Counted from the whole stretch's first letter, positions 17,433 to 48,242 are shown. The stretch is DNA of 56,804 nucleotides, filler included, from Sphacelaria rigidula (GCA_964200075.2; 3 parts of 3 records of this genome joined end to end with filler, not necessarily neighbours in it), one strand, 5' to 3'. The notes: generated by a model from the sequence alone, not told the origin. A program made the numbers and translations.

Positions 17433-18880
17433 CGGCGATGATGGGAGGTATTCATCATTCCGAACAAAACGTGGGGGATGAGAGCATCGTGAGTGTATCT
17501 TACCGACTGAGGTAATTAGGTGCACGCAAATGTTTTTTTCCAGTCATTGAGTCCATCCAGAACGAATACTTTATTGGGTTCCTCCCCACCACCTACTATG
17601 TTTATCTTCCACCCCTTTCTGTTTCCGCCCGCTTTGGTCCAAAGAGCGAACACCTTTCACCACCATCGGCCTTCCATAGCTACCGTCGAACCCACCGCAC
17701 GGCAAAAAGTCGAAAGGCCGAAGAACGTTTCCAACGCTTCTTTATACCTCTTCCCACGGCCTGGAGACTGGAGACCCCCCCGCCGATCTTTTCTACACCA
17801 CGGAATGAGACCCTGAGGGGTGATTGACATACAGTGTACCACCGTTCGTGGCGCGTGCCCAAACGGCACAAGTTCCCGAAGGGCGGAGCACAATTCAAGT
17901 GGCACAATCTGCCAAGTTATACAACACAAGGGCTAAACCGCAGTGGAATTTTTTCGCGATCCTTGTTTTTCCTGAAATTCGTTTGGAGCTTTTCGGGCTA
18001 TTCGCCAAGAAATGTTTTGGCTGTGTGCCATCGAGGGGGCCATGAACCAGCGGCACAGTGCCCCTTCCTGTGGTGCATACGCCATGCAGCCCGGACCTGA
18101 GACTCGAGCACACATCAACTAATAATGACCCCACTGTCTTAGGACACCTCACGATATTGATGAGAGGAAGCGTTTGCCACACTCTATTTTGAAATCTATA
18201 GGTTATGGAATTGAAAAAAAGCAAGATGACCTCATCAATACACTTTTGCCCCAACGACTTCGTCGGTTTCTGCTCTTCAAAACTCCAAGAAGGAAAACCG
18301 GCATACTCGAACAGCTGTCGAAACCCGGTGTTTGAATTGTCTTAAAAAGAGTGCAAGTCCCAAGAAAAAGGATATCAAATTATTCACTTTTTTATAGCAT
18401 TGAGAGAAAGAGGAACGAGACAAGGAAAATGTTGGTGAGATCAGGAACTAGGTTTTGTTTTCGGAGCGGTTCCAAAGTCGAGTTGGGGGATATGGACGCT
18501 GATCAACTTCAGGCACGTAACATGACGTGTTTTTTTCATTGAAAGCTTACGAACAGAAGATGGAGCGATGATGTTGTTCCAAGGGCGAATGCGGCGGTGC
18601 CAAACCAATAGAGTGAGACAGTGACTTTGTCCCTCCTTGTATCCTACACTACCAGAGGCATCTTCGTGCTGTCATCGGTCATCATTGGGGCGTGGGGGAC
18701 AAGAGGCAGGCTGCCAGCACAACATGTCCTGTACGACCGTAGGGGGGTGTGCCCTGTATCATCCGTACCCCCCTCCGACGTGCACAATGACCTGCAGAGG
18801 TCGGGATCTTCATATTATAGCCTCTGCCAGACGATCTGGACAGGAGGGCTATTCAGTGAGGGACTTCTCCAGAATCCACT

Positions 18881-18980
18881 NNNNNNNNNNNNNNNNNNNN
18901 NNNNNNNNNNNNNNNNNNNNNNNNTTAATTAATTAANNNNNNNNNNNNNNNNNNNNNNNNNNNNNNNNNNNNNNNNNNNN
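18881..18980. other. Assembly gap with artificial linker
   Basis: N44-TTAATTAATTAA-N44, a six-frame stop linker identical to the one at 37843. Confidence 0.97.
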
Positions 18981-19838: not shown

Positions 19839-22800
19839 ATGGGCAAGAGAACAAAGGGTCAAGATCGGGACAAGTATTACCACCTCGCCAAGGACCAAGG
19901 CTACCGCGCCCGATCCGCTTTCAAGCTAATCGAGGTCAGTCCCTTAGTTTTCTTGGCCCTCTGTATACTCTCCTTGCTCTCATGCAGCTCTTGTCTCCGG
20001 GTGTCGCGTCGTGTCGTGACCGACTGTGCGATGTACGTCGCAGTGAAGCACATGATGGTTTGCAAGTTACAACTGTATGCCGGTGACTATTATCTCACCA
20101 ATGGAGTCAGCAAATGGACATGACTTCCCAGCTACCTCAACAGTTGATGCAGTTTCGTAGTGTGCTTGGTTTTGTGCTGGTTGTACCTGAGGTCGGGATT
20201 GCCTCGATCACAGCCACACACCCTGGGGGGGTGCCGACAGACGGAGTATAACACCCCCCCCTGAGAAATTTCTATGAGTTCCTTGCTCTCGATTCATCGG
20301 GCAATGAATTCCTGTTGTGTCGAGAAGCCATATTTCCTCAGCAGGTCCAGGTGGCATCTCTCAAGAACACAGCGATAGGCGTCGTGGCGTAGACAAGCTC
20401 TAGAAAATGAAGTTGCCCAGGGCTACTTGCGTTTCACCTCACGGCACCATATCCCAACTTGCATCGTCCCTCTTCATATACTATACCACGCCTAAGGAGT
20501 TGGTTTTACGGTCACATACGGCACAGACGGACAGCCCAACACTGCACAACACGGCAGTTTGTCGTAACCGAACACCACGCAGGTCCCGTTTTTGAGGGTG
20601 AAAAAGCTCAGGAATGTGCTGATGGATCCAGTGGCTGATTGAGGTAATACAATATCCGGTAAGGGGTTGCCGAGGCTTCAGTCAAGACGGCCTGCGCTCT
20701 CCACAACAGTAGCGGCGGAGGGTGCTGTTTACACATCACAGGTACCGTGCATGGAACTGACCGCACTATCGCGAACGAGTCATATCCGGCGCTCAGCGGT
20801 GTACCGCAGAAACGTAACTGAAGGTACTCAAGTTCTACATTTTGGTTCCCTCCCCGCTCATCACAAACAACAGATAAACAAGAAGTACGACTTCCTCAGC
20901 AGCGCCAAAGTATGTATCGACCTCTGCGCGGCCCCGGGAGGTTGGTGCCAAGTGGCGGCCAAGTATATGCCTCGCGGGAGCATCATTTTGGGCGTGGATC
21001 TCCTGCCGATCCGACCCATTCCAAACGTGAAGACTCTTGTCCATGACATCACCACTGATGAGTGCAGGACGGCCTTGAAGCGGGAAATGCAAACGTGGAA
21101 GGTACGTCACCGCATGGCTGCGACACGGGGAAAACTACAGAGGTCGAGTACCGGCTGTCGTGATGCACTTGGCTTCGTAGAACGCCAGTATCGGGTGCCC
21201 ATGACAGAAACTGAAAACATTCACCAAAACATGGCTCTTTTGTATAATAACATATTCTACGGCGGGCCTAGCGTCGAAGGTTTGTCGATGGACGATACAC
21301 GCACAGGGGCTAGATGGAGCATGCGCGAGACGGAGGAGGGGTGTTCACAGCTCTCTTTTTTTGCAGACGAGGCTGCTCACTATCAAGTCGTATCGGATCA
21401 ATGACACACCCCAGCAGAGTCAGCTCAGCTCCACGGGTGTTGTTGAGCGAAGTCCAACGCAGGTTGCGCCCCTTCATCACGAGACGAAGTCTCGTTTTTC
21501 AATGTCCATAGTAAGTCTTGTCGACTATATAATCATTCTTGTTGTCAACTAGCAGCAGCTTTCATGACTGCGCGGCAACGATGAACGTCACATTTTTTCA
21601 ATGAACGCCGAGCCAAAAGCAACCGTCTGAGAACGAGTGTGGGTCAGGCTGTGAATCAGTATCAGGTTGACTCGAAAATATCACTGCATTACTTGATGAC
21701 CTATCCTCGCGGTCCCGAGGTTGAACAGGTGCATGAGGAAACGTGTCTGAAAAAAAGACGACTTCTCCTTCAATTACCTGTATTTCTTGGACTCTTTTGA
21801 GGAGTGGTCTGAATATGGGGCCTGCACTACTCATCCCGACGCACGTGAACACTCTCCTCGGAGACGGCCTAGCGCACTCCAGGGAATTTTTAACATACGT
21901 GCAAGAGCAAAATTGGAAGGGGTCGCGTATTGCGTGGCTGACTTTTTTGTCGATGGGACATTTGGTGCTGACACACCGTTCCATCGCCCCACTGTCATGC
22001 CGCGTACGAAGCGTCTCTACACCACTGTTCTGGAATGGGAGTAGGAGATGGACCGGATGGAGCCCACCCCGTCACAGGGAGGCACTCGGAGAAGTTTTGT
22101 TTCAGACTGAGAATGATACACGCTTTGTTTTTTCCATCGAAGCTTTAATTTTGTAACAAAATGGTATGACTTTCCCCTCGTCGGTCAGATAGCGTGCTGC
22201 GGTGTGCCTGCAACGATGCACCCGATCGGAAACTCCCCGACTTTTCCACTTCTTGAAAGATGTGAGGAATTATTGATTCCATCGGCTGCACACGGGGCTG
22301 CCCCATCCGCATACCCTTCAAGTTGGAAGACTTGAAAGGTTTGTTGTGTAGGTTTTCCACTACTTCGATATTTTCGAAAATCGTACTGAAAGCACCCACA
22401 ACTTGGGTACAGAATTGAAATCGCGGTAAAGGATGCCCAATGATTTGGGGAAGTTTGGAAATCGGATTTCGCTACACGAGATTTGGGACTGGAAACTCTG
22501 GTATTTCACAGATGAGTTGCATGATGCATTGTAAACTGGAGTTCAACGCCATGATTGATTTATCCCTCGGTCCTCTGTTGGTAGGCAGACGTTGTCCTGT
22601 GTGACGGCGCGCCCAATGTGGGTACAGCATACAAGAAGGATGCCTACGAGCAGAACGAGATCGCTCTTCACGCCCTGAAGGTGGCAACTCAGCACCTCAA
22701 AAAAGGTGGAACCTTCGTGACGAAAGTGTATCGGTCTCAGGACTACAACTCGCTCATGTGGGTCATCCAGCAGTTCTTCATGGAACATCAGGTGATGCAC

Positions 22801-25800
22801 AACCCCTTGTTTTGTCCCCAAAGGCGGCTTCTCCGTATTAAGGTTGAAACGGCGCCTTTTTCTCTCGATATTCCACCCTTGTGATGAAATGATGTGTGGG
22901 TATCGAAGGAAGTTGCGCTCCTTTTCGTGACAGGGGCAATGGTCTTGAAATCAACCCGTAGTTGCTACATAATACAGTATTCGACAAGAAATTCCAGCAA
23001 TCCTCTCTGGGGTAGCTACCGTGAAGCATCGTCATTTCTCGACAAGCAAAGGAATCCTCTTCATTCCCCCTCCCCCCCCCCCCCCGCCCCGCCCCGCCGC
23101 CCCGCAACATTCACGGTGGTTGAGCGAAGATGAACAGTTTCGTTGACCTGTCTCATCTGTTGTGACTCCCTGGATTGATGAGCAGTCTGTAAAGCCGGCG
23201 TCGAGTCGAAGCCAGTCTGCCGAGATATTCGTGGTGGGACGCAACTACAAGGCGCCCGATTTCATTGACTCTAGGATGTTGGATCCTAGGCATGCGTTCA
23301 AGCAGGACTACGAGCAAGAGGGTGAGGGACCCCCCCATCCGATCAGCTGATTTTCACAGTCGCATGTCCACCTTTTTACTCAGAGTCTTGAACATGAATT
23401 CTTGACTACTGTGCGCATGATTCGTATGTGCCACGTTAGCGTGATGCTGTTGAATTCAGGCGAGGATTTCATCTCGTGACCCACCTCCGCTTGCGAAAAT
23501 TGCACGGAGGTGTCTCGATTGTGTCTGCCGGTATGGAGTTTTGCGCTAATCATCTATTTCCCGTGACACCTGTTCCTTGCTCCCGGAACTCCGATTTCCA
23601 GAGTCGTTACATGGCAACGCCAGTTCGAACATGACTAATGAAGGAACAGTGATTTAGCTACTCGATGCATTTTTCGATGAATGCGGCCGGTCGTTGTGTG
23701 TCTGTTCACCACAGGTGGACAGAAAGGATTGTCCATCTTCCACAAAAAGTACGACCAGCACAACAAAAGGCATCGACAGGGATACGCCGATGATCTGGGA
23801 ATGACGCTTAGTCGAGTGACGAAGGTGAGAGACTAGATCGTGTACGTTATTTGATTCTCTAGTCCACTCCGATGGTCGCATATTATTCACATCTTGTGCA
23901 GGAAAAAACAAGTAACCCGCCACGCCGAGAGCCTTTTGTACGGGTGTTGCCCAGTTTATTTTTGCCCATCCGCTACATGAGTCCCGATGCCGCGTAGGTT
24001 TAATTGAATTGAACTACATCAGTAAGGGTTTATGAAGATGACTTGGTGGGCGACGAGACGAGAGTACGAAGCAACAATCGCACTTGGGGTACAACTTGTC
24101 GAAAATTTGATGGAAGCGCCTCGACCCGTGGGGCAGGTGATCTCTTGCACGGTCATGATTTTACCCGTAAAATAATATCAATCCAAAAGATTCGCCTGTC
24201 TCGGCGGTCGGAGGGGTGATGATTTACCCCTCAACAAACGGATATGAAGTTCTGATGGAAACTAAATCACACCTTCTTGAAATCGTCATAGAACAGCAGG
24301 CGCGGGGATGACGTATTTCCCATAATCATTCGCAGTGACCAGCCGACGCTCACTCGCTCCGCCGAGCAGAGTTTGAGCCTGGGGCCAAAACTTCCTTGGA
24401 TGTCTGAGCGCCCTTTGTCCCCGTTTTCCTGTATACACTTCATCCATTGGGTAGTGTGCCGTAGTCGGCGACGATGACGTCCATGTGTTGCATTGGTCAG
24501 GGGTAAAATGACCGAGGCGAGAACCAGATGAAAACGCCTACCCCTGTAGCCACCGATGTGGACTATCACCGTAGCCTACGCTCCTGGAGAGCAGCTGTGC
24601 GGAATCTCGCAGCACCCCATACATATACATATTCCAGTATGTTCAATGTATCACTTTCGATGTGAACACATCATATGCCAGGCAACGAACTAAGGATCAT
24701 CGACGAAGTCGCGCCCGACACGGAGAAAAGCTTTGACGCGAAAGTGTTGACCTATTTCCGAAATCATTTGGTGACATTGGAATATAGTGCGCACCCGACA
24801 AAAATAGGTTAAACGACGCCGGCGCGGGGATGACGTATTTCCCATAATCATTCGCAGTGACCAGCCGACGCTCACCCGTCCCGCCGGACAGGGTTCGAGC
24901 CTGGGGCCATAACTTCCTTGGATGTCTGAGCGCACGTCGTCTCGTTATATATTTTCCCTCATATCCAGTTTGTCCGCTCCTTATCGCAAACAAGAATCGA
25001 GTCCTGTAAAATGCTGTTGTGGTTCCTTCATCATTCCACACCATGAAAAAGAGCCAGGCAAGGGTCGACAGCCCAAAATGACCCTTGACTCTTACAGCCG
25101 TTCCAGGACACGCTCGCGTTTTCCGCTGGTGGCACTTTTCACCCTGGCGAAATGAGGATTTTTGTCCAAAGATGGTCGGTTTCCGGCGAAACATTGTTTT
25201 TTCCTAGATTTGACCGTTCTCGGTCGAAACTTCACGCGGCCACCCGACAGCCCGAAGATGTACGAGGATTATCAACTTATGAAGCAAGTCACTCCCAGGT
25301 ATCAACTCCACCTGGCTCGCGTTTGAGTCGTGCAATGACAGGACAAAACCCGAGGAGCGCTTCTACGAGACTATGTTTTTGATGGCTATCGGGAGCGGCC
25401 CTGAAGGAGGGCATGCACTAGACTCGAATCAACACATGAATCGAATCAACGCGGGATATCAGCTGTAACTCGGAGTTACCGGCGCAGGGATGACGTACTT
25501 CCCATAATCATTCGCAGTGACCAGCCGACGCTCACCCGTCCTGCCGGACAGGGTTCGAGCCTGGGGCCATAACTTCCTTGGATGTCTGAGCGCACGGTAT
25601 CTCTATATGTTGGTTTCGCATGAACCTCACTCAGTTCAATTCAAGGCCCTTGTAAGAGCGCTGTCGGCCCATTTCGTGACTCGTGTTCGACGAGGAATGG
25701 CTATCAACCTACTCTCCTTCGCGTCTCTAGATGTCTCATTCCATTATCGGCCTCGACTGATTCAAACACTAAACATGATGTGTGAAACTGGCACCTTGTG

Positions 25801-28800
25801 CTGTTTGTGGTTTATGTACAATGATTCGCCCAACCTTCCTGACTATGATGGATGTTCACGATTTCACTTTTCCCTGAAGGCCGTGCGCAATGTCTCGTGC
25901 AACGTCTTCGTTTATACAGGTTTCCGACTTTATCGACTCGGACGATCCCGTACGTGTCTTGACAGACACGCATGTGCTGGAGTTTGGTCCTGAGTGCCTG
26001 GTGTATAAAGAACACCAATCCTCCAATGCGGAGATCCAGCACCTGTGTTCAGGTACGCTCGCACTCATCTCCGATGTATCGAGAAGCTGAAGAACTCCTC
26101 TACAACTCCCGAGTTGATCCGACGAAGGCGGAATACCGCAAAATGGGTGAAGCGGATGGTTTGAGCTGAGGGTGAAAATGTGTGTCCCTTTCCTGCCCTG
26201 GAAGAGCCCTTTTACACCCCTCCACAACGCATTCGGAATTCAGTTCACGCATGACGAAGAATCATCCAGATTCCTTGAGAAAGATGACGTGGCGAAGGTC
26301 ATCGTATGATTATGGGTTGAAGAAGACTCTAAAAACATGGCCGTTGACACCGTACCTAAAAAGGAGAGCCTTCGAAATGCTCCATATCCATGTACCCAAC
26401 GTTGATTAGGAGCCCTCCATCCTTCCCAGTACAGGAGGGACGTCGCCATTTGCGGAGCTCCGCTTTGATCGCCGGTGATTATAAATAAAGATGACGAGTA
26501 TGAAAGGGGAAGGGCAATGTGGACTGCGGTAAGACGTCCTGTCGAGGTGTAGTCTGCGCCCTCCCCCGACCTGTGATTATCATACGAGGCATTTGTATGA
26601 GGCGTGTTTTCTTGTTGGAGCTCTATTTTTTTCTCATGCTGGAGCTACTCTTTCGTTATGGATGATTGTAGTGCTGTTCGTCAGACTCGGCCCGGTGGGC
26701 GATTGTTCAACGCGTCGAGAAGCCTCTCTGCGAACTGTACATCACCGCGAAATGATTCTTTTGCGATGAAACGGTTGCTTGAAAGTCACCAATTTCGAGC
26801 TTGTCAGGGTCTTTGCCGGTGATTATAAACAAGATGACGAGTATGAAGCAGGGAAATAATGCGGAAGCTGGCGAGACGTTCTGTCGACCCAGTGTCTCGA
26901 TCTCTCTGCAACCTGTGATTCATTATACGAGGCATTTGTATGAGGCATGTTGGAGATGACACACGAGTCGCACGCAGTATCATGATGGTTACGACGGTGA
27001 AAATGACCTGTCCAAAACTTGTGACATTACCAAGTTCATCCGATCAGTATATTTTTTAGTAGAACTAAAGTCAATCCAGCAACCGAACTCATGTCACGGG
27101 TCGAGAGTCGAGAGGGAAGTGTATGCTCGAGAGTGACCGTGAAACTGCGAAAGCACCTCACAGAACTGCCGTGCCGTTTCCACCTTGCCTGTGATTACAC
27201 CAACGATGACGAGTCTGAAAGTCACGATGCAATCTTGACTGGGGTGAAGCGTTCTGTGGAACCCCATGCTCTTGGTCTCTGGCGCTCTCTGATTATCATA
27301 CGAGGCATTTGTATGAGGCGAGGATGGAAAACCGTGAGCGTGTCGAGATGCTCTCGTGTTTGGATTCATAACGGACGTTCCACAAATACGCAGTCGCGTA
27401 AACTCCACCCGAATCGCCTCGGTGACTTGCCGTGAACGTGTTATGCGGGTGCTGCCGCGGCGTGGAGACCGCGGTCCCGACAGCGATTGTGTGCTTTCTT
27501 GGATCGTACTGTATCTGTTCCCCTTGCGCGGGCCAGGTCATGAACATGATGCGCATATTGCAACTCGATTCCTTGTTCCAAGGCATATCTTACGGAGCTA
27601 CTATCGATCCAATAACCGAGAATCCGTGTCTGCTGCGATGTGTCTACTGCGCCGGTTAATTACGTCGTTTTTACCCAATTTTCAGATCTTCGAGTGTTGG
27701 GCAAGGGAGATTTTCGACAGCTCATCAAGTGGCGGCTGCGCTTGGTCAAATATAGGGACGAACTGAGAGCACTCGAGACCTCGAGCAAGGACCGTGACGA
27801 AGACATGACAGAGGATGGTGATGAGGACAAGAACGCCGCCCCAATGACGGAGGAGGAAAAGGAGGCCGAAGTCCAGGCGGAAATCAGAGCCCTCCAGTGA
27901 GATGATACCTCTACCCAAAATGTACCCTTGTTGTCATATCAATCGCAGGTTGACATGATTTTTTTCACTGCAATCCCTCCCAGATGCACTATGCCATGGC
28001 GACGGTGTAAACAGCTGGTTCATGAACAGCCGGTTTTTTCACGTGGAGGAGCATCTCTGAAGGGATTAGCCTCAGAGACGAGATACCTATGACCGGTTTG
28101 TACCTTTCAGCGTTGTGGGTGCCGGAAAGTATGCCAGGCTCCTCTCCGGCTTTGTCCCAGACTGACATTCAACGTGGAAACCGTTGGACATGGGTGACAC
28201 TCTCGACGATAGCCCTCCCTGCCAAAAAGAGCAAACTCTTTTTCGAAACAGTTCTGGCTTGGGGGAAGGCGGCTGTCGTTGACAGTACGCCTTGAATCTC
28301 ACGAGATCGTACATACCCATTTCTTCGGCATGTGTAACAGGCTACAAGCACTGGCGCAAAGGAAGAGAGTACGTAAAAAAGAACGAGAGGCTGCTGCTCG
28401 ACTTCGTTCCCGCGTGGCGATGGGGATGGAAAATACAGCTGTTGACCTACCAGAGGAGGAAGGGATATTCTCTCTGAGGAGTATCAAGGTAAATTGAACG
28501 TACTACGTTAAGGCACACTCCTCGATGGATACCACCTTGAACTCAACAGTGCAGCAGGTGGCGTCTGAGGATTCCTTTGACGTTTCGACGGAGTGGCAAT
28601 CTCACGACGGGACGGGTGCACCCGTGATGTTGGGATCGTACTCGAAGAGTGCTAGTTCAAGATCAATCCGTGACGCTCACCTACCGACATTGCTCGTTGA
28701 TTGACCGTGGTGTCTGCTTTAGACGGGTGGTGAGTTGGACGCGGTCCGCGACGTGGATCTATCGAAGCTACCGGCGTCCGACATGGACACGGCCGCTGCT

Positions 28801-31800
28801 GAAGACGATGAAAGCGACACCGGTGACGAAGCAGGCAGTGATTCCGGGAGGTGAGATGAACCAAGTACACATTTGAGTGTTTTGATGTAACAATACAGGA
28901 CGCCGTCGTCACCTTTCACACATGTTCGTTCAGTCGAGCACATTCCATGAAATTCGAAAGATGTCTTGGTGGCGATTCCGTTTAGCCGCACAGACGGAAG
29001 AGTGTGAATTGGTGTACGAGGTGATGAAACTTGCTGGGATATTTTGTGTATTTCTTGTGAAGTACACGAGTCCCTGAGTCGGCATCGGTTCCGGTTAATT
29101 TCAGTCACCCTCGGAAAAGAACTCGAGTGGGGAGCTGACAGTTGAATTGCGTGGGCGGCCGTTGTTACAGCGACGATGGATACAACGAAGCCATGGAGGC
29201 GGAGCTGAACACGGGCTACCTTCGCTTCCTTCAAGCCAAGGATGAGAGCAAACGCATGGAGGGCACACGATTGGCCAAAAGGACAAAAAAAGCGCAGGTA
29301 CCAAATTAGTCGTTTTTTTCGGTCCCAAATTAGTCAAGATCTTCCTGATGTTTGGATCGATGTTCCTCCAAGTCGCGTCCGACTATTCTGGTTTCGAAAG
29401 TTGACCTTCAATCTCCCTCTAAAGGTGTTTGAGCTTCGAATCACCCGTGTCGGGCTATTCCATTATCCATTAGACGGTCATTTTCAAACGTGAGAGTTGG
29501 AAATCCACTTTGTCGGTGCATTGAACTAGGCACAAATCCGATATTCTGACACGCTATCGACCATGCTACGAAGACGCTGGGGACAAGACCCAGGAAGCAA
29601 GCACACTCCCTTCCCCTAGGTCTTCGGGCCAACGATGGAGGAAGTTTTTTTCGTTTGCGACAGTAAAACAGAGTCCCCGTCACGTCCGATTTCCGGAAAC
29701 CATGCCGGGCGGTCCCAAGGCTGCCACTTGTCGGCTAGGAAAGCAACGGGATCCTAACATACCAAGACGCATGCTCGTGCTTCTAATCGAGCGTACGCTA
29801 ATGTAAATTCATGTTGATTTGTTCCGGTCGAATCCCACTGTCCGTTGTAACGAGTACGGTTCGATTATGAAGTTTGAGGACGTTCTATACTGAGCTCTTG
29901 TGTCGTCCACTACCTGGCTACTCGGCTGTCGGATAGGTTTGTAGTCTCGTGGAGTTGACGGTTAAATATTTTTGGGCTTATGAACACGATTCGATTATAG
30001 CGCATGTCACACAACTTCGGGAATTACAGCTCATGCATAGACGGAAGGGTGCCGCTGTTTTCACAGTTTGGCGTAAACGAATTTCGATAACGACTTGAAC
30101 TCATGACAGGCAACCAAAGCCGTCAACGAAGAAATGGAAGACACCATGATGTACGACGGAGACCAACAACGCTATCTCCAGCTCCTCGCCACCGGCGGAG
30201 AAAAAGAAGTAGCCGTGGATGCCAGTGACATCGACAGCTCTGACGTCGCCAGCAGTAATGACATAGACTCCGATAGTAATGCGGAATCGGATGGTGACGT
30301 ACGCGCGGGGTCATCTTCGGTCGCGCGGACGGAAGGTCGAGGTGAGCATGAGTGTCTAGTAAAAATAACCCTTCGGAGGATTGTGTCCACACACGTATTC
30401 GTTTACCCTGATATACGAGATGAAATCCATGTGGGTGTGCCTCGAGCTTAAATATTAGGCTCGTTGCTGGTCACGTTTTCGACTCATGACTCCGATTTTC
30501 GTTTCGTGTGGGCACAGCTGTAAAGCACACGTGCGCGACGTGAGAGAGCTTTAGGTTCGGAATTCTCACCTGTAGCCCTACGATGCTATCTCGAGGATTT
30601 CTGTTTGGCGTCGTAACGAAGACCGTGGAGGCAGGGATATGTCACGTTCGCCACTTCGACGGTAGTCATTTAGCTCTTGGGAGTTGCACACATGAAAATA
30701 CTGATGATGAAATGGTATTAGTCGCCGCTTGATGAAACTACCACTTGGTCCAAATTAAATTTGAGACTGTCGACCCGGAACTTGGTGAGCAATTTTAGAT
30801 TCACCCTCGAAACGGTGACGGAAACCTGCCACGAGGAGTTCCACCAACATTATCCGGCACCAAGTATTCGTCACATGATCGCCCGATGCACGTGATGTGG
30901 TAAGAGATCTGCGTTCTCGCGGATGAATGTATGCATGACGTCCACCAGGAAAGCGAGGTCGTGCGCAAATTGGAACTCCCGCGGTGGGCGGGTCACACGT
31001 CGACAAGGCAAGTGCAACTGAGGGGCCGCATCCACTGTTGGCGGAAATCTCGTCGAAATCGGAGCGTCGTCAGGCTGCCACCCAACGCTGGTTCAGCAAC
31101 CCACTGTTTTCCGGCGTGGAGAAAACAACAGAGGGTCCTGATGGTGAGACGATTTCAGCCGAAGCTGGTGAGGGTGAAGAAGACAATGTCGACGAAGGAC
31201 CGTCCAGTAAGCGTGCGCGAAGGGGTGCAGACAGGAGTCGGCAACGCGGTGGCCTCGAGGTAGAAAAGGGTTCGGAAGAGAAGAAGGGTGGTGCAGCGGC
31301 GGCGCTCCTTGCTTCGATGCCGAAATCCGATAAGGAAAAGCGGAGGGAAAAGCGCAAGAAGGTACGTTCCCCATATCGTGGACGTCGGCGACGGAGTTCT
31401 GTCCACCGAGCACTACTCGCAGCATAATCTCGGTTTCATGTAGGCTGCCACGTACAGGATTGTAGATCAGCATGTTGGCGAACTACTCGTTTATGTCACG
31501 GGTTTCAGGTAGGTCGAGCAGAGTATACTCAGTTGCGAGGTACATCAAAAGTTGGGCACGAAGCACCCAAATTGGGGTTGGGGTTTCAAGGATCGCTTTG
31601 CTGTTATATTTTGAGAGCAACTCCCCAACACTCTACCCCGATTTGAATACCCGAAGTACGTCTTTGAAAATACCCCGAAAATGAGTATACTCTCCTCGAC
31701 CTGCCCTTGCAAGGTGGGCGGTGATTCTTAACAACTCTGGTGTCGATCGCTATCGTATTTGTGGTCGCACTATTTTGAGGGAAAAAAGCACACTTACCCG

Positions 31801-34177
31801 CCCCAGCATGTTAGGTCTGTATTATTCACGCTGTCTGCCTCGTTATTGAGCTACGAACCAGGGCACTCATTCGACAGTAGAGTCTACAAGTCGAGTAACA
31901 CTCCCATCAAGCAAGCACACTCCCTTCCCCTAGACCTTCGGGTCGACGATGGAGGAAGTTTTTTTCGTTTGCGACAAAAAATCGGTGTCCCCGTCTCGTC
32001 CGATTTTTGGACACCTTGCTGAGCTGCGTTCAGGCCGCTGTTACTTGGTGAGGGAAGGCCTGTGAATCCGCACAATAATTGATATTGTCCCGAGTTACCG
32101 ACTCGATGCCGCACAAACAGCATTGCTTGGATAACAGGGCCGTGACGCTTTCGCGTTTAATACATCTTGAGGTTGGAAAGAGTACTTTTGTAACCCCGAA
32201 AACACTAGTTTGGTCAGCAATGCTGGTCGAAGAACAATGAGATTCACTTTTGCCAGTTGTAGCGGGTTGGCGAAAAATGTCGCACGTGTTTCTATCTTGA
32301 ATGATCTTCGACAGGCGGCTGAGAGGAAAGAGCGTCGAGAGATGAAAAACAGCAAACGTATGAGCGAGGATGGAATGGCTGACGATGATCTTCAAGTGGT
32401 GTCCGGTGAAGCAGAGCTGGAGAATTTGAATCCAAAAGAACGAGCGAAGCTCGAGAAGAAGCGGAACCTGATTCGCGCCGGGATGGGTGCGTCAACTGAC
32501 GATGCTGACGAATCCGGCTTTGAAGTGGCCAAGGCTAGCAGTGCTGCGAGGGCCATGATGGGGATGCGAAGAATGCCAGGGTTCGGCGTGGGAGGGATCG
32601 AAGTCGCTGACGACCGCGTGTATGGTTCAGATCAGGTGAAAAGATCTGTCACCATTTTCACCCTTCCCCCCAGGTTGTCTGTCGGCGAATATTTCCTTGG
32701 GGGAAGGAAGTCCTCGCCAACGTCGGGCAGCCGCGGTGGTCGTAATTCAACGTCGTACCTGTGACGGGTCGGATTCCGGAATAAGATAGCCTTCGTGTGA
32801 GGAACGGTTTTACCAAGTGACGAGGAAAGTACGGGCGTGAAAATGGTTCAGGTTGATCAACACTTATTCCGCTGTGTGGCATGGCTAGATCAGTCACCCC
32901 GCTCATCTTGCTCGGTGTTTGCGTTTTTGTTGTGGAACCTTTAGGAGGCGTATGATGACGAGGATCGAGCGAAGCAACTTGCGCTGGGCACGATGATGCT
33001 GCGCAAGCATCGTGCGAAAGATATCATGGACGCTGCATACAACCGATTTAGCTGGAACGACGACGCCGATCTGCCCGATTGGTTCGTTGACGATGAAAAA
33101 CGTCATTACCGTCCGCAGGTACGAAGCCGCTCCCAACATGGATTAGTGATGAACGTCCCGGCGGTTGATGAACCACATTCCGGAAATAAATTGAAATTGA
33201 GTGTACAGCTACAGTGACGCTTGTGAACATGTGGGACATCCGCAGTGGAGTTTGTCATGGGATCACTTGCAGCCTTGGTGAGCCGTCGTGTGCATCCCCC
33301 CCGTTGAAATGAGACTTGGGCGTGACTTTCGCGGTTGACGACAACTTCAATGCCACTACTCATGCGGTACAGGTGCCCCTACCGCCAGCACTAGTGGAGC
33401 AGATGAAACAAAAGTTCATGACGCTCGCTACGAAGCCCATCAAGAAAGTCGCTGAGGCCAGGGCAAGAAAACGGAAAAGGGCTACACAAAGACTGGCTGC
33501 TGCGAAGAAGAAAGCTACGGCCATGGCTGCTAATCCAGGTCGGTCCAAAACAAGATTGATGACGAGTTTCATTCCACATGAGATTGCAGTTGGAACTGAA
33601 GGAGAGGTCGATGAACGCTTCGGAACTTCGGGCTGCTTGGATAGTTTGGGTCACATCCAAAAATGTGTTGAGCTGATGACATATGACGAGTGCGACATCG
33701 ATGACAACTAAATACGGTCGTTTCGAACGTCGAAATTGATACGATAATGTTCACTGCAAGTTTGAAGTCGACCGGGGCGACCAGTCGACTCGACGATCTT
33801 GTGACCCGAACCATGTATGCATCGAGTTGGCATAATGTTGCTGTAGATCAAGTCATGAAGAGCACCGCTTGGCCACGTCATGATGTCTTTTTCGATAATC
33901 GCCCCTTGTGCTCCGTCTTGCAGACATGTCAGAGCGAGAGAAGCTGAAGGCGGTGCAGCAGGCCATGAAGAAGGGTGCCAAGTCGGACATTCCGTCCAAG
34001 GTTTATGTGGTTGCCGGGAAAGGCCCGGGAGGGTCGAAGAAGAAAGGCGCCAAGATCAAGATGGTCGACGCGAGAATGAAAAACGATACTCGCGCTGCGA
34101 AACGCATTGGTCAAAAGAAGAAAACGGGGAAGCCGGGCACTGTGAAAAAGGGGAAGGGTAGAAAAGGACGACACTAA
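19839..34177 (+). CDS. SPB1: AdoMet-dependent pre-rRNA 2'-O-methyltransferase SPB1/FTSJ3, 16 exons, 1027 aa
   Basis: All GT-AG and phase-consistent exons: 19839-19934, 20874-21101, 22585-22791, 23186-23321, 23715-23824, 25920-26052, 27686-27896, 28341-28488, 28723-28850, 29171-29297, 30110-30341, 30949-31361, 32315-32635, 32945-33118, 33373-33538, 33924-34177 (3084 nt). FtsJ motifs [62 protein letters not shown]; Spb1 C-terminal motifs [32 protein letters not shown]. Confidence 0.97.
24299..24412 (+). ncRNA. U14: U14 (SNORD14/snR128) box C/D snoRNA, copy 1, SPB1 intron 5
   Basis: Terminal stem GGCGC/GCGCC, box C variant GGGATGA, domain A CATTCGCAGT (antisense to 18S ACUGCGAAUG), domain B CTTCCTTGGATGT directly before box D CTGA (antisense to 18S ACAUCCAAGGAAG). 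Confidence 0.93.
24822..24933 (+). ncRNA. U14: U14 box C/D snoRNA, copy 2, SPB1 intron 5
   Basis: Same boxes and both antisense elements; GCGC/GCGC terminal stem. Confidence 0.93.
25482..25593 (+). ncRNA. U14: U14 box C/D snoRNA, copy 3, SPB1 intron 5
   Basis: Near-identical to copy 2, with similarity ending within a few nt of the terminal stem. Confidence 0.93.
26470..26604 (+). ncRNA. U15: U15-like double-guide box C/D snoRNA, copy 1, SPB1 intron 6
   Basis: CGCC/GGCG terminal stem; box C GTGATTA; guide AGATGACGAG then D' ATGA; C' GTGATTA; guide ACGAGGCATTTG then D ATGA. Both guides are antisense to the conserved LSU segment CAAAUGCCUCGUCAUCU. Confidence 0.85.
26814..26947 (+). ncRNA. U15: U15-like double-guide box C/D snoRNA, copy 2, SPB1 intron 6
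   Basis: TGCC/GGCA stem; both guides and the C, D' and D boxes are conserved while the internal spacer has diverged. Confidence 0.85.
27187..27319 (+). ncRNA. U15: U15-like double-guide box C/D snoRNA, copy 3, SPB1 intron 6
   Basis: GCC/GGC stem; GTGATTA ... GATGACGAG-T-CTGA (canonical D') ... TGATTA ... ACGAGGCATTTG-T-ATGA. Confidence 0.83.
29597..29762 (+). repeat. Duplicated structured intronic element, copy 1 (candidate H/ACA snoRNA or old repeat), SPB1 intron 10
   Basis: High similarity to 31911-32077 over about 115 nt, weaker after. Hairpin with a cUUCGg loop followed by ACAGTA (ANANNA), with ACA near the 3' end. Confidence 0.6.
31911..32077 (+). repeat. Duplicated structured intronic element, copy 2, SPB1 intron 12
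   Basis: Paralog of 29597-29762; GACC-TTCG-GGTC apical stem, ACAAAA (ANANNA), ACA at an equivalent distance. Confidence 0.6.
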
Positions 34178-38800: not shown

Positions 38801-40553
38801 TCAACAACGGGACAAAAACAGGAATCTCCCGAAGTTAAGCGGGCAACAAAAATATTGAAAAGTTGGCGGGGAAAAAAAGGACTGGTGCATGACTAGCAAG
38901 CGGAGTGCAGGATCTCACGAAGAAGTCTTCCGGGGGCATTGTTCGCCTAGCCACCTAGCGCCCAAGCAAGAGACGTATCGAGAATGGTGCACAAGCATCC
39001 CCACCACTAGCCGGTGAAAATGGATGCCTGTACAAAACTCCTCATGTCAACGACGCACGAAGAGGCTCATAAAAAGGGTGGATAATGAATGGTATTGGAA
39101 TCTCATAGAGGGAAAAAAAGAACACAAGTGTCTGTCGAGGACTCATCACATTTTCATACGAGCGATCGGTTCGACATTCCCCCGGTTTTCTCGCCCCAGG
39201 CTTCGTGTCGAATGTGAATCATCCCCACGTCCGTGCTGATAATGCCGCATACATGTGTCCGCCGCATGATCCCTTCTCTGCAGGGCGAGTCTCCCAGAAA
39301 TATTGTTTCATGTCGCTGTATTTCGTTTTATGCTGCTTCTACTCATTCCCTCTTGATGACAAGCCTTGATGTAGGTGATGAACGATGGGAGTTCGTATTT
39401 TGCTCAGCGATCCCTCGCCCTGTCGGCAAGAGCCTTGCGAATAGTTCCTAGCTGACGCGAATATAACATCATTCCTGAGCACGTCACGGAGATAGTCCTT
39501 CCAGGATGTTCTAGAGAATCTCTGGAAGAGCCCCAAACGTTACTTCTCGTTCGTATGAAAATTACAAGGGTCGTCGTCACTACCCTTCTGTGCTGCTGTA
39601 CGATTATGTGCTGCTACTGCTGAATCATGCATGCAGCTCAAGAACTTCTGTAGACACACACATGAAAAAATAAAATAAAAATGCCGCAATCGTCAACGTA
39701 AGTTGTGGTGTGCACAGGTATGTACGTGATTTTGCCGGGTTAGCTTGGTTTCTCTCCGTCGTTCACGTTGGTGCGCCTAAAATATACTTGCCGTAATATG
39801 CCCAGTTTATGTTTCTTGTCTCGTGTCGACATCCCCATCCTCCCAAAACGACTAGCGGAAGCCTTCGAAGACTCATCCTGGGGGCTTCATATCTTGGACG
39901 GCGCCTACAAAATCGGAGGTACGCTGAGGCGACAATATGTATCCAAGTGCGAACCGTGCCGTATACACCAGTCCTTGGAGATGTTGCACACGGTGCTTCG
40001 AGAGAGGATGCATGTGTTGTACTGCATCACGCTAATGTTTGCAACGGTCCTCCAGAAACAGCAACAATTTTTCCCTTCCCTTTTGCCTCCTCACCCGCAC
40101 TGAACACGCAAGAGCTGGTGAACTTCAATGGAGGCAGGATGCAACCGCAAAGTCCGGATCCCAAGCACATGCTTGTTTTTCGCGTCGAGATTGGCGGACA
40201 CATGGTGGGATGCCCTTGTCGAAGCGTTGAGGCAGCTCCTCGACACCGGTGTTGATTCATAAATAGGAATAACCGCCACCATCAGATATCTAGGACGCAA
40301 TGAACCATCTCGACGAGAGGAGCCTAGCCCACTCTTTCGATTCGTTGGGCTCTAAGGTTTTGCAAACGTCCACCCGCCAAAACTCCAACGGGGCTACAGA
40401 GGTGTGAAAACGGTGTGGAGTCTTTGGAAATATCGCCACAGCCGCCACCTTGTTTCGTCGTATCCAGTCTGATTTTCGGAAACTGAACGTTTTCGAAACC
40501 TAGGAGTCGAGCGACTCGGAGAATGGGCTGGGCTTCTCTCGATGGGGGCGTAC

Positions 40554-40800: not shown

Positions 40801-43800
40801 CCGTCATCTCTCGATGGGGGTATGCACAGTGTCCGAGATATGTGATGGCGACATTTCCAGGTTTGAGGTCAAAAACTGTGTCAAATATGTCAGACCTAAA
40901 AATGTATGAATCGAAAAAGATCGCATCCTTTTGAGGAGTAGCCTGGAACGACGTCTTTGTTCCCTTGATGTGGCAGGATTGCAAATATCTATCAACGCAT
41001 GGCAAGCAGCAAGCTGACATCGGGTTAGTTAAAGGGGCCAGCAAAATGATAGAAAAGAACTCCCAGATTCGCGCAGGAAACGTGCACCCGATACATCTTG
41101 ACTGGAGCACAGAAACTGCTAGAAGTGCTCCCAAGCAAAAGACCATAGACACGAGAATGATGTCAAGATATCCCCGCGAACAATGTCTCGTGGCTACGCC
41201 ATGAGGTGTGGAGTGCTTTGTCACGTAGGAGATGTAACGGTGATTTCTACATCAGAGGGCGGCAACAACAGATGGTGACAGCCGGAAACTATCGTCGGTG
41301 ATGGAGCATGACGCTCGTCGTGGTCAGTCCCTTATCGCCTATATTGTCGAAAAAACAAACCCTGCACTGCTGCAGGACTCTGTTTGCCACAATATCTCGA
41401 TGAAAGTTCCGACGGCGCAAGTTTTGGATGGCGTGGTCACCCCAAACCGCAACTCTGAAATACGCGGTTGAAAAACTGATCGCCTGACGTGTATATCCCG
41501 TACCCACGGTGGTATGGATACTAGAACACAGCATAAAGTGGAATACAAAACAAGGAGCCTGACAAGCACATAAACATCACAGTACTCGTCTTGTGTAGCT
41601 ACAGACGTACTGTAACACGGACGCCACAACACGTGTCGTTCCGAACTTGTACACAGAGTTTCGAACCAAGCAAAAACATTAAGGATTGAATTTTGTTGAT
41701 TTCGCATAATCCCGTTCAAAAACTAAGGCTCAGCCGTTTTCTCTCGTCATGGATCGGCTTAGATAATTACTCCAGCACGGTTATACGTAGTGTATAAAAC
41801 AAAAATTAACCCGTCCCCTTAACATGGCACGCAAGGTGGCGTACGTTTCCGGAGAGACTAAGCCGGCACGTCGGACGCGTATGGTGAAGACAGACCTTGC
41901 TGCTCGTGACGGAGTGTTCGTGCACGTTGTGGACAAGATACTTTACGCGGAGATGTAAAATCACGACAGGCCAAAAGTGCATCGACTTTTACCATCATCT
42001 TCATCGAAAACGAGTGTTCGTATACTACTAAGGATCTTCTTCGATTGATGGGGGGAAATGGGTTATTTTCCCCCGTTTTCCCACGTTTGCCTTGCACTTT
42101 TCATGCGCGTTACGCAATTTGTTCTCAGAAATCACTACTTTTTTTTTCCCAAAGCAATCTTCATTTCCATGCCCACATATGGGAAATGGATTCACCCGAA
42201 CATCAGCACTGCCGCTCGTTTCATGCAGTTTGGCGGGGACGCAACCGCGACAGTGCACGCACACACCACAACTGCACCGCACTGGAGACATAACTTGCTG
42301 TTCCAAGGGGTGGTCATGATAATATTGGGCGCTTGCGCTGATGTCACAACACCATGTCGTGAAAATTGGGACACAGGACGTGGAGCTGGGTCGTTTACCA
42401 TAAACTTGTGGATTTTTCAAAACTTTTCCCACTTTTTCTGGTGGAAAATGCAAAGCCGATGGAAAGCTTTAAAAAAACACTGTTCCGCCGCAGCAGCCGC
42501 AATTGCGCCTCCACCGCTGGCGCACTCTATCTTTGTCCTTCTCTTGCTTTTGTCGCTGCTTTCGCTGAGCCGCACTCTTGACCTGTAGTGCCCTTGCTCT
42601 ATTGTCATCGTCCTTCCTGCCCCACATCGCTCGCCGAATATCCCGCCCAGCGCTGTGTCAGATTGCTTGTTGTAAACCCTTCCGGACAGTTGACATTATA
42701 GCGTATTGGACAGATCCAGAACACGCCGCTTTTATCTTACGGCGAAAGCGACTATACCTTTCTCCTTGCAGGACGTTGACACTTGTGTGCTGCTGCTGTG
42801 TCTATAGTACGGTGTCCTCTTACTCTTGACACTGACTGTTTTAATGTTTTGCTTCATCACTTACAAACCGTACGCTTCCTTCTTTCGGTGCAGCAACTGT
42901 GTAGGTATTAACTGCGGCTCCACCTGTAGCAGTACTGTAGTACACATCATCCGTTCCTCCGGGCGACAATCTGCCCTACCACGATTTCTCACTAATATCG
43001 GTGCTGTCCTTCTGTCACCGAACCCTCCATCAGGTTTCTACAACACTCCAGCGCCACTTCTAAATTTTTCGCTGGGTGTGCACTACGCGATCCACTTTTC
43101 ATCTTTGGGTTGTGTATTACGCCACGCCATCTTCTGTGTGTGTACTGGGTGATACATTTTTCATCTCTCGTGTGTGTACTACGTGACACATTTTTCTCTT
43201 TTGGTTCTGTACTGCGGATCCACCGTTTGGTTATATCCTACGTTATCCACCTTTTTCTTCTTTGGCGCTATACTACCTGGTTCGTTTTACGATTTACTGT
43301 TGTTTTTGTTTCAAAATTTCGTATTCCCCTGTAATCCTTTCAGTTTGGCGCCTGATCTGCCCCAACATTACTGTTTCAGTCGGCTGCTACGGCTGTCTCC
43401 TCTTGGACCCCTGCACATGACTTCAGTGTTTCGCACCCTCGCTCCCGCCCTTTTTGATTCTCTTTCTGTATTGAATTCCAAAACTATTTACACATCGCCT
43501 TCATTTTGGCCTCGTGATCTACACTAGTCTTCGTTTCTACACCTCCTGTGTGCAGTGTCTTCCTTGCCCCATTGAAGTACCCTTGTGCAGTGTGTGCCTG
43601 GCCACTGAAGTACCCCTGTTGTACTTGACGTGCACAGTGCGCCGTCGGACATCTGTCCGAGTGTCTGCTTCCTTTCACAGTCGTCTCACTGTTAGGTTTT
43701 GCTCTTGCACCACACCTTTCTTGCGACAACTATTAGTTTTGTCTGTAAGTTTGTTCCTTAGCGACTATTAATACCTGTGGTACACCTTCAGTGCGCCTTC

Positions 43801-48227: not shown

Positions 48228-48242
48228 CACGCCGACGACGGC

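What the first reader, a model, noticed from the sequence alone, without database searches (positions are those of the whole stretch)
23825..27685. SPB1 rRNA methyltransferase gene hosts two intronic multi-copy snoRNA clusters (3 x U14 + 3 x U15-like)
Seen: adjacent introns 5 and 6 each carry three paralogous 112-135 nt units whose similarity is bounded by short terminal stems and concentrated on C/D boxes and rRNA-antisense blocks, with unrelated spacers. Established: Spb1/FTSJ3 is a stand-alone LSU 2'-O-methyltransferase; vertebrate U14 and U15 lie in HSPA8/RPS13 and RPS3 introns, usually one per intron, while plants also use polycistronic clusters. Inference: one transcript delivers the protein-only methylase and guides for fibrillarin-dependent methylation and 18S processing, and several snoRNAs per intron need endonucleolytic release. 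I do not know this host arrangement from elsewhere, but cannot confirm it is unreported.
Basis: partly seen in the sequence, partly recalled or inferred. Interest (0 to 1): 0.88.

Follow-up and report, generated by a model that had tools for sequence, protein, structure and literature searches.

The report
snoRNA clusters inside SPB1 gene introns
Two neighbouring introns of a gene for a ribosomal-RNA methylating enzyme each carry three copies of a small guide RNA (U14 in one, U15 in the other); the sequence evidence for this is good, but the layout is a new example of a known pattern and not a new kind of system.

Summary
A 16-exon SPB1/FTSJ3 gene lies on the + strand, ATG 19839 to stop 34177 (Pfam FtsJ, DUF3381 and Spb1_C in order; open 1027-aa spliced frame). 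Spliced contigs of public runs give 15 GT..AG joints, so intron 5 is 23825-25919 and intron 6 is 26053-27685.

Intron 5 holds three U14 units (Rfam SNORD14, 51-53 bits, E 2e-9 to 7e-9). Intron 6 holds three U15-like units (SNORD15, 27-39 bits, E 8e-6 to 8e-3). All six match the full model length but score below Rfam's gathering cut-offs.

Similarity stops at the unit ends. Boxes and guide blocks are nearly invariant, and both families show compensatory pair changes.

Not shown: mature small RNAs, their release from the intron, pairing with this organism's own rRNA, and the same arrangement in relatives. Five U14 or U15 loci fetched from other organisms have no SPB1 nearby.

Several snoRNAs per intron, and an rRNA-methylation gene hosting guide snoRNAs, both have precedents in plants, green algae and flies. 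I rate it a new member of a known kind, interest about 0.3.

The parts
19839..34177 (+). SPB1/FTSJ3-type rRNA 2'-O-methyltransferase gene (start codon to stop codon); 16 exons, 15 GT..AG introns, spliced frame of 1027 codons
   Evidence: Pfam FtsJ, DUF3381 and Spb1_C on collinear exon pieces; 15 spliced joints in contigs of runs X4, X5 and X6 and none in X1; open frame after joining exons
23715..23824 (+). exon 5
   Evidence: joints; splice sites
23825..25919 (+). intron 5 (2095 nt, the longest of the gene), host of the three U14 units
   Evidence: joint 23822>25918 'cut +2' in X4, X5 and X6, contig depths 192/192/249; GTGAGA...ATACAG
24298..24414 (+). U14 copy 1 with terminal stem (Rfam match 24300-24411)
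   Evidence: SNORD14 52.9 bits, E 2e-9, model 1-111/111; alignment and consensus fold
24820..24936 (+). U14 copy 2 (Rfam match 24822-24933)
   Evidence: SNORD14 51.0 bits, E 6.6e-9
25480..25596 (+). U14 copy 3 (Rfam match 25482-25593)
   Evidence: SNORD14 51.6 bits, E 4.6e-9
25920..26052 (+). exon 6 (133 nt, start of the DUF3381 region)
   Evidence: Pfam DUF3381 E 1e-6 on the reading frame piece 25878-26090; joints
26053..27685 (+). intron 6 (1633 nt, second longest), host of the three U15-like units
   Evidence: joint 26047>27681 'cut +5' in X4, X5 and X6; GTACGC...TTTCAG
26470..26605 (+). U15-like copy 1
   Evidence: SNORD15 26.6 bits, E 8.4e-3, model 1-146/146
26814..26948 (+). U15-like copy 2
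   Evidence: SNORD15 28.1 bits, E 3.5e-3
27186..27321 (+). U15-like copy 3 (the only copy whose D' box reads CUGA)
   Evidence: SNORD15 38.6 bits, E 8.2e-6
27686..27896 (+). exon 7 (DUF3381)
   Evidence: Pfam DUF3381 E 1.6e-12; joints

Best explanation
Six functional box C/D snoRNA genes sit in the sense orientation inside two consecutive introns of an expressed SPB1/FTSJ3 gene: three U14 paralogues in intron 5 and three U15 paralogues in intron 6.

Proposed mechanism (inferred, not shown). RNA polymerase II transcribes the host gene. Core proteins assemble on each C/D kink-turn, either on the pre-mRNA or on the excised intron. Because each intron holds three units separated by 208-543 nt spacers, cuts within the spacers followed by exonuclease trimming back to the protein-protected terminal stems would release three mature RNAs per intron, of about 112-117 nt and 135 nt. 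This is the processing route reported for plant intronic and polycistronic clusters.

Expected functions.
- U14 would act through its domain A in 18S pre-rRNA processing, and through domain B plus box D as guide for the conserved 18S C methylation.
- U15 would be a double guide for two nearby LSU sites: the 5' guide with D' for a G, and the 3' guide with D for an A. The human A site is A3764.
- The mRNA encodes the stand-alone LSU methyltransferase. One promoter would therefore supply a protein-only and two RNA-guided ribosome-biogenesis activities.
For: Shown:
- All six units give full-length covariance-model matches, with E 2e-9 to 8e-3 in the 5.5-kb search and 2e-8 to 0.086 over the whole window.
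- Blocks identical to the model consensus in all copies (alignments): CAUUCGCAGU and CUUCCUUGGAUGUCUGA in U14; GAUGACGAGU and GAGGCAUUUGU in U15.
- Similarity ends at the terminal stems, and the flanks and spacers are unrelated.
- Compensatory changes between paralogues. The U14 internal hairpin keeps 3 pairs through double changes, plus 1 terminal pair, out of 34 predicted pairs. In U15, 11 of 38 predicted pairs have double changes.
- The U15 C box reads UGAUUA and its D box AUGA. By the kink-turn geometry as I recall it, this replaces the usual G-C pair of stem II with U-A. The four metagenome U15 loci were selected only on the guides and the AUGA D box, and all also carry UGAUU at the C box, so 7 of 7 sequences agree.
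- The host is intact and spliced, and the units lie on the host's strand.
- No poly(A) tail or target-site duplication is visible at the unit ends.
- None of the 7 longest intronic reading frames I submitted, on either strand, has a Pfam match.

From the literature: target assignments for SNORD14 and SNORD15 (table in PMC6461891); Spb1/FTSJ3 as a stand-alone methyltransferase (passage in PMC11014333).
Against: - None of the six reaches Rfam's gathering score (best 52.9 vs 64 for SNORD14; 38.6 vs 75 for SNORD15).
- Two of the U15 copies are only marginal over the whole window (E 0.036 and 0.086).
- The U14 C box reads GGAUGA in all three copies. The G replaces the U that the Rfam consensus keeps.
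- No mature small RNA, 5' or 3' end, or methylated site has been observed.
- This organism's rRNA was not available, so guide-target pairing rests on identity to family consensus.
- Independent promoters inside the introns are not excluded.
- Whether other U14 or U15 copies exist elsewhere in the genome is unknown, because no genome is held.
Confidence: 0.8

Rival explanations
1. The units are genuine snoRNA genes, but each is transcribed from its own promoter inside the intron. SPB1 would then be only a location, not a host transcript.
For: The units lie 323-473 nt from the nearest splice site (coordinates). As I recall it, that is far from the roughly 70-80 nt upstream of the 3' splice site favoured for splicing-dependent snoRNP assembly in vertebrates. 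In the Neurospora U14 cluster the authors report a putative promoter upstream of the U14 homologue although the cluster is co-transcribed (passage in PMC2780460).
Against: The 28-31 alignment columns upstream of the units share almost nothing: 2 of 28 invariant for U14 and 4 of 31 for U15. No conserved upstream element is therefore visible. All six units are in the host's orientation. Plant-type clusters with similar spacing are reported as processed from a common precursor (introduction passage of PMC7671301).
Confidence: 0.12
2. Some or all copies are decaying duplicates or retro-copies of snoRNAs whose functional genes lie elsewhere in the genome.
For: Scores fall below the Rfam gathering cut-offs. 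The boxes are non-canonical (GGAUGA in U14; UGAUUA/AUGA in U15). U15 copies 1 and 2 score only 26.6 and 28.1 bits. The rest of the genome could not be searched.
Against: Guides and boxes are kept in every copy while the U15 centres have drifted to 61-72% pairwise identity. Stems are maintained by double changes. The odd U15 boxes form a compensated pair and recur in four unrelated metagenome loci. There are no A-tails or target-site duplications.
Confidence: 0.06
3. The repeats are fragments of a dispersed transposon, or chance matches.
For: None beyond the fact that they are repeated.
Against: Calibrated E-values go down to 2e-9, with full-length model matches. No further copy occurs in the other 51 kb of the window. 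Summed contig depth of the DNA-like run X1 over these bins is 52-91, like the flanks, whereas a true high-copy repeat at 31524-32024 reaches 10563. The tool warns that this depth is not a copy number. Only 4 matching stretches turned up in 241 million metagenome records.
Confidence: 0.02

Closest known systems
Intronic snoRNA gene clusters of rice, Drosophila and Chlamydomonas
   Same: Several snoRNA genes lie inside one spliceosomal intron of a host gene, in sense orientation and separated by unrelated spacers, so release needs more than trimming of one debranched lariat. Basis: a passage in PMC2780460 citing Liang et al. 2002 and Huang et al. 2005, and the Chen et al. 2008 title seen in reference lists. 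Those three papers themselves were not held or not tried.
   Different: Each cluster here is homogeneous, with three paralogues of one family. The two clusters occupy adjacent introns. The host is SPB1, which I found in no paper as a snoRNA host. The organism is not a plant, green alga or fly as far as the data go; its taxon was not established here.
Arabidopsis fibrillarin genes hosting U60.1 and U60.2 (Barneche et al. 2000, as cited in a passage of PMC2685112)
   Same: A gene for an rRNA 2'-O-methylation enzyme carries methylation-guide snoRNAs in an intron. The same passage gives a further case of snoRNAs in a gene of related function (an H/ACA snoRNP subunit-like gene).
   Different: Fibrillarin is the catalytic partner of the guides it hosts. 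Spb1 works without guides and on another site, so here the link is by pathway and not by complex. That case has one snoRNA per gene against six here.
Vertebrate U14 in several hsc70/HSPA8 introns (RPS13 in Xenopus) and U15 in RPS3 introns
   Same: The same two snoRNA families are present, they are intron-encoded, and one host gene carries several copies.
   Different: Vertebrates place one snoRNA per intron and use different host genes.
Plant and protist polycistronic clusters containing U14 or U15
   Same: Examples are the rice/Arabidopsis U15a-U15b-snoR7 cluster (PMC5122169 passage), Ostreococcus cluster 1 with a U14 homologue (PMC7671301 passage), and locus L005 fetched here, with U14-, SNORD38-, SNORD34- and SNORD12-like units. 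They share tandem units 100-500 nt apart, and paralogous U15 copies sit side by side.
   Different: Those clusters are mostly mixed-family and often not inside a protein-coding gene's intron. L003, L004 and L005 show other neighbours and no SPB1.

Membership tests
U14 / SNORD14 (Rfam RF00016) | Score at or above Rfam's curated gathering cut-off (64 bits) | tested here: not met
   52.9, 51.6 and 51.0 bits; 0 matches at gathering. E-values of 2e-9 to 7e-9 and full-length alignments show homology all the same.
U14 / SNORD14 (Rfam RF00016) | Box C, box D and a terminal stem that brings them together | tested here: met
   D box CUGA; terminal stem of 4-5 G-C pairs; C box GGAUGA in all three copies, a variant with G where the consensus has U.
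U14 / SNORD14 (Rfam RF00016) | Domain A, the 18S-complementary element needed for 18S processing | tested here: inconclusive
   CAUUCGCAGU is identical to the model consensus in 3 of 3 copies. The next bases differ from the consensus, and no 18S sequence of this organism was available to test pairing.
U14 / SNORD14 (Rfam RF00016) | Domain B, the methylation guide directly upstream of box D | tested here: met
   CUUCCUUGGAUGUCUGA is identical to the consensus in 3 of 3 copies. The target is assigned in PMC6461891 (table) to human SSU C462 and Arabidopsis C416. Pairing with the organism's own 18S was not tested.
U15 / SNORD15 (Rfam RF00067, clan CL00045) | Score at or above the gathering cut-off (75 bits) | tested here: not met
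   38.6, 28.1 and 26.6 bits; E 8.2e-6, 3.5e-3 and 8.4e-3 in the 5.5-kb search; 8.5e-5, 0.036 and 0.086 over the window.
U15 / SNORD15 (Rfam RF00067, clan CL00045) | 5' guide followed by D', and 3' guide followed by D (double guide for two nearby LSU sites) | tested here: met
   GAUGACGAGU followed by AUGA (copies 1 and 2) or CUGA (copy 3), and GAGGCAUUUGU followed by AUGA, in 3 of 3 copies, aligned to the same model positions. The A3764 assignment comes from the PMC6461891 table; the G site is recalled. The organism's own LSU rRNA was not available.
U15 / SNORD15 (Rfam RF00067, clan CL00045) | Terminal C/D kink-turn | tested here: met
   C box UGAUUA with D box AUGA gives a U-A pair in place of G-C. 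It is seen in 3 of 3 window copies and 4 of 4 metagenome loci (UGAUU), where the C box was not part of the search pattern. The pairing geometry is recalled, not computed.
Intronic snoRNA gene cluster | Two or more snoRNA genes within one spliceosomal intron, on the host's strand | tested here: met
   Three units lie in each of introns 5 and 6, whose borders are set by spliced contigs.
Intronic snoRNA gene cluster | Mature snoRNAs are made from the host's transcript | not testable with these tools
   No listed holder is on record as RNA, only contigs were available, and small RNAs are not recoverable from them.
SPB1 / FTSJ3 (host gene) | FtsJ methyltransferase domain, then DUF3381, then Spb1_C, in one intact expressed gene | tested here: met
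   FtsJ E 8e-17 and 4e-15; DUF3381 1e-6 and 1.6e-12; Spb1_C 9e-18, 7.5e-15 and 1.2e-11. These hits fell on 7 of the 12 reading-frame pieces submitted. There are 15 spliced joints and an open frame of 1027 codons. Catalytic activity was not tested.

The most novel reading that the evidence does not exclude
The SPB1-U14-U15 linkage is not a chance landing site but a conserved, selected module of this algal lineage. One promoter would set the dose of a guide-independent LSU methylase, an essential 18S-processing snoRNA and a double LSU guide. Triplication would boost snoRNA output per host transcript. The lineage's U15 would work with a rewired kink-turn (a U-A pair in stem II), and its U14 with a G at the normally protruding U. 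That would imply a co-adapted Snu13/Nop58 recognition surface.
Probability: 0.2. Interest if true: 0.45.

Novelty: new member of a known kind. Interest (0 to 1): 0.3.

Why it matters
It gives six well-supported snoRNA genes, with exact coordinates, for an organism group in which my searches found no snoRNA catalogue in the main text of any paper. The Ectocarpus small-RNA paper only mentions predicted loci, and its supplements were closed. It also adds SPB1 to the list of ribosome-biogenesis genes that host snoRNAs.

It shows that the 'several snoRNAs per intron' layout occurs in this lineage too. That makes the lineage a candidate system for asking how multi-snoRNA introns are cut.

The naturally compensated C/D box pair in U15, seen in 7 of 7 sequences, is a small but clean example of covariation in the kink-turn.

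None of this changes how snoRNA biogenesis is understood.

Tried and rejected
- **Whole genome:** none is held for the window, so I could not search for other U14 or U15 copies or for the organism's rRNA.
- **RNA evidence for the small RNAs:** no RNA holder is listed. In the spliced-contig runs the intron bins have low or zero summed depth (0 to 4.5, except where a bin includes an exon). From contigs this says nothing either way.
- **Relatives:**
  - The metagenome pattern scan for U15 with an AUGA D box gave 4 loci of 1.5-7.3 kb. Of these, 0 of 4 have SPB1 exons by tblastn with 163 reading-frame pieces of the gene. Three of the four contigs are under 2.2 kb, so the absence is weak evidence.
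  - The SPB1 exon 7 peptide against genome contigs matched 600 pattern stretches, and none was confirmed.
  - The U14 pattern in genome contigs gave 1 locus (L005), a mixed snoRNA cluster without SPB1.
  - No genome of a close relative could be reached with these tools.
- **tblastx** printed nothing, probably because it is not installed. I replaced it with tblastn.
- **Protein Atlas** search with exon 12, meant to place the organism, gave best scores of 0.79-0.82, which is uninformative. The taxon stays unestablished. Run labels are coded, and one partial holder is labelled 'algae metagenome'.
- **Strict C/D scan of the window** (exact RUGAUGA, CUGA, stem of at least 4 bp) found no further candidate inside SPB1. 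It also cannot see these six units, whose boxes are variant.
- **A C-box-like pair at about 24150-24260:** I looked by eye for a fourth element and found no terminal stem. Rfam found nothing there at E up to 10.
- **Intronic reading frames on both strands:** 0 of 7 have a Pfam match.
- **Papers not held:** Liang 2002 and Chen 2008.
- **Guide-rRNA pairing:** I did not test the guides against a real rRNA. No contiguous window stretch of 14 or more bases is fully complementary, and I did not type rRNA from memory.


Full report
**What is there**

The stretch 23825-27685 is exactly two consecutive introns and the small exon between them, in a large gene on the + strand. Stop-to-stop reading frames along 19.6-34.2 kb carry Pfam FtsJ (E 8e-17 and 4e-15), then DUF3381 (1e-6 and 1.6e-12), then Spb1_C (9e-18, 7.5e-15 and 1.2e-11), in that order. 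These hits fell on 7 of the 12 pieces submitted. This is the domain order of yeast Spb1 and human FTSJ3, the stand-alone LSU 2'-O-methyltransferase (passage in PMC11014333).

Contigs of three public runs (X4, X5, X6) join the exons across 15 GT..AG introns. The first joint is seen only in X5 and the other 14 in all three runs. The DNA-like run X1 covers the introns and shows no joint. X4 and X5 give identical figures and may be one data set filed twice, so the independent support is X4/X5 plus X6.

After the tool's 'cut +n' correction, all 15 introns start with GT and end with AG. The joined exons give an open frame of 1027 codons from the ATG at 19839 to the stop ending at 34177. Intron 5 is 23825-25919 (2095 nt) and intron 6 is 26053-27685 (1633 nt). 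They are the two longest introns of the gene.

**The repeats**

The repeat finder reports a three-copy family of 130 nt in intron 5, with starts at 24297, 24819 and 25479. In intron 6 it reports two three-copy families of 34-35 nt, which are the two ends of three 135-136 nt units.

Alignments with 30 nt of flank show that similarity begins and ends at short G+C-rich terminal stems.
- For U14, 103 of 117 unit columns are invariant, against 2 of 28 and 8 of 41 in the flanks. Pairwise identity is 88-97%.
- For U15, pairwise identity is only 61-72%. Conservation is concentrated in the stem plus C box (10/13), the 5' guide plus D' (14/15), C' (9/11) and the 3' guide plus D plus stem (20/21). The centre has 21/70 and the flanks 4/31 and 5/42.

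This pattern fits selection on the functional elements of old duplicates. It does not fit a recent segmental duplication or a transposon.

**Family assignment**

At Rfam's gathering thresholds the window has no match at all. With E-value reporting on 23000-28500, the three intron-5 units match SNORD14 over the whole model (52.9, 51.6 and 51.0 bits; E 2e-9 to 7e-9; cut-off 64). The three intron-6 units match SNORD15 over the whole model (38.6, 28.1 and 26.6 bits; E 8e-6, 3.5e-3 and 8.4e-3; cut-off 75). Over the full 56.8 kb these six are the only snoRNA matches among 9 with E up to 1. The other three are weak miRNA or sRNA matches far below their cut-offs.

The printed alignments show which parts carry the score.
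- In U14 these are CAUUCGCAGU (domain A) and CUUCCUUGGAUGUCUGA (domain B with box D).
- In U15 these are GAUGACGAGU before D' and GAGGCAUUUGU before D.
- Each block is identical to the consensus in all three copies.

The 5' half of U15 also gives weak, non-significant matches to plant SNOR75 (E 1.8-8.2). The whole unit gives a similar weak match to Plasmodium snoR21 (E 8.9), which shares the same two guides.

Published tables assign SNORD14 to human SSU C462 (Arabidopsis C416) and SNORD15 to LSU A3764 (PMC6461891, table and figure-legend passages). That U15's 5' guide directs a nearby G methylation is my recollection.

**Structure evidence**

RNAalifold on the three U14 units predicts 34 pairs. 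Three pairs of the internal hairpin and one terminal pair are kept through changes on both sides between copy 1 and copies 2 and 3. For U15, 11 of 38 predicted pairs have such double changes, mostly in the divergent centre. With three sequences per family these counts are indicative and not statistical.

A second line comes from the boxes. All three U15 copies have C box UGAUUA and D box AUGA. In the C/D kink-turn as I recall it (Watkins and colleagues' model), the fifth base of UGAUGA pairs with the first base of CUGA. G-C has therefore become U-A.

I scanned the metagenome collection for U15 units defined only by the two guides and an AUGA D box. Four loci came back, and all four carry UGAUU at the C box, which was not part of the pattern. 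Two of the four also match SNORD15 at E about 1e-4. The compensated pair therefore appears in 7 of 7 sequences, so it marks a widespread U15 lineage and is not a defect of these copies.

The U14 C box reads GGAUGA in all three copies, with G where the Rfam consensus has a conserved U. I have no explanation for this and list it as unexplained.

**Rivals**

- **Coding:** none of the 7 longest intronic reading frames I submitted, on either strand, has a Pfam match.
- **Transposon or high-copy repeat:** no further copies occur in the window. The summed contig depth of run X1 over these bins (52-91) is like the flanks, whereas a real high-copy element at 31524-32024 reaches 10563. The tool warns that this depth is not a copy number.
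- **Retro-copies:** no A-tails or target-site duplications are visible.
- **Independent transcription:** not excluded. However, there is no conserved upstream element, and all six units share the host's orientation.

**Mechanism (inferred)**

The units lie 473 and 417 nt from the 5' splice sites and 323 and 364 nt from the 3' ends of their introns. The spacers between units are 405, 543, 208 and 237 nt. This is unlike the vertebrate rule, as I recall it, of one snoRNA about 70-80 nt upstream of the 3' splice site. It resembles the plant type, where clustered snoRNAs, intronic or not, are processed from a polycistronic precursor (introduction passage of PMC7671301).

The likely route is co-transcription with SPB1, snoRNP assembly on each kink-turn, endonucleolytic cuts in the spacers and exonucleolytic trimming. 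None of these steps was observed. No listed run is on record as RNA, only contigs were available, and they cannot show small RNAs.

**Comparison with what is known**

[quoted passage not shown] It is extensive in Chlamydomonas; I saw only the title of Chen et al. 2008 in reference lists, and neither that paper nor the rice paper is held.
- A gene of the rRNA-methylation machinery hosting guide snoRNAs has a direct precedent. The Arabidopsis fibrillarin genes carry U60.1 and U60.2, and the same passage names an H/ACA snoRNP subunit-like gene that hosts H/ACA snoRNAs (PMC2685112).
- Side-by-side paralogues of U15 occur in plant clusters (PMC5122169).
- The one element I did not find in print is SPB1/FTSJ3 as the host. 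Five full-text searches returned no such report. The Ectocarpus small-RNA paper says only that snoRNA loci were predicted with CDseeker and ACAseeker (passages). Its supplements, which I could not open, might list them.

**Is the linkage conserved?**

I could not reach genomes of close relatives. In the five loci from other, unidentified organisms that carry a U15 or U14 of this type, no SPB1 exon is present.
- L003 has the U15 between NDUFA5-like and ferredoxin-like frames.
- L004 has it upstream of an inositol-phosphate kinase, with a second snoRNA-like unit about 700 nt away.
- L005 is a eukaryote-like contig filed under a bacterial MAG. It has U14 in a mixed cluster with SNORD38-, SNORD34- and SNORD12-like units.

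Three of the four metagenome contigs are under 2.2 kb, so absence there is weak evidence. What can be said is that the SPB1 location is not a general property of these snoRNA types.

**Verdict**

Formal Rfam membership by gathering score is not met. Homology is nevertheless clear from the E-values, the full-length alignments and the identical guide blocks.

Expression and processing are inferred.

Noticed in passing
window 31524-32024 (intron 12 of SPB1): Summed contig depth of run X1 jumps to 10563 here, against 60-100 elsewhere. Several contigs end with unrelated loose ends at 31681-31715. This looks like a high-copy dispersed repeat inside the intron.
   Followed up: no
window 24306-24311, 24828-24833, 25488-25493: The C box of all three U14 copies reads GGAUGA, with G where the Rfam consensus has a conserved U. 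By my recollection that U is the flipped-out base bound by Snu13/15.5K. I have no explanation.
   Followed up: partly
window about 26533-26545, 26876-26888, 27249-27261: A central block of the U15 units (ACGUYCUGUSGA-like) is conserved among the three copies. It aligns to a conserved CGUUCUGUG block of the Rfam SNORD15 consensus and is only partly kept in the metagenome loci. Its function is unknown; it may provide extra pairing with rRNA.
   Followed up: no
window 39367-39486 (+) and 48076-48149 (-): A strict scan (exact C box, CUGA, terminal stem of 6 bp) picks out two further C/D-snoRNA-like candidates, of 120 nt and 74 nt. They have no Rfam match at E up to 1, and their context was not examined.
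   Followed up: no
window about 18880-18980: A run of N (176 N in the window), which is an assembly gap just upstream of the SPB1 start.
   Followed up: no
window 42000-54500: Strongly negative GC skew (-0.16 to -0.23) with many long + strand stop-free frames of up to 430 codons. It may be a large repetitive gene or element; it was not examined.
   Followed up: no
L005 2697-3500: A contig filed under a Verrucomicrobiaceae MAG carries a eukaryote-type cluster of four C/D snoRNA-like units (SNORD14-, 38-, 34- and 12-like; E 3e-4 to 0.05). This is probably eukaryotic contamination of the bin.
   Followed up: partly
runs X4 and X5: The two runs, listed under different studies and years, give identical depths, joints and contig lengths over the 15-kb stretch. 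They may be one data set filed twice and should not be counted as independent.
   Followed up: no
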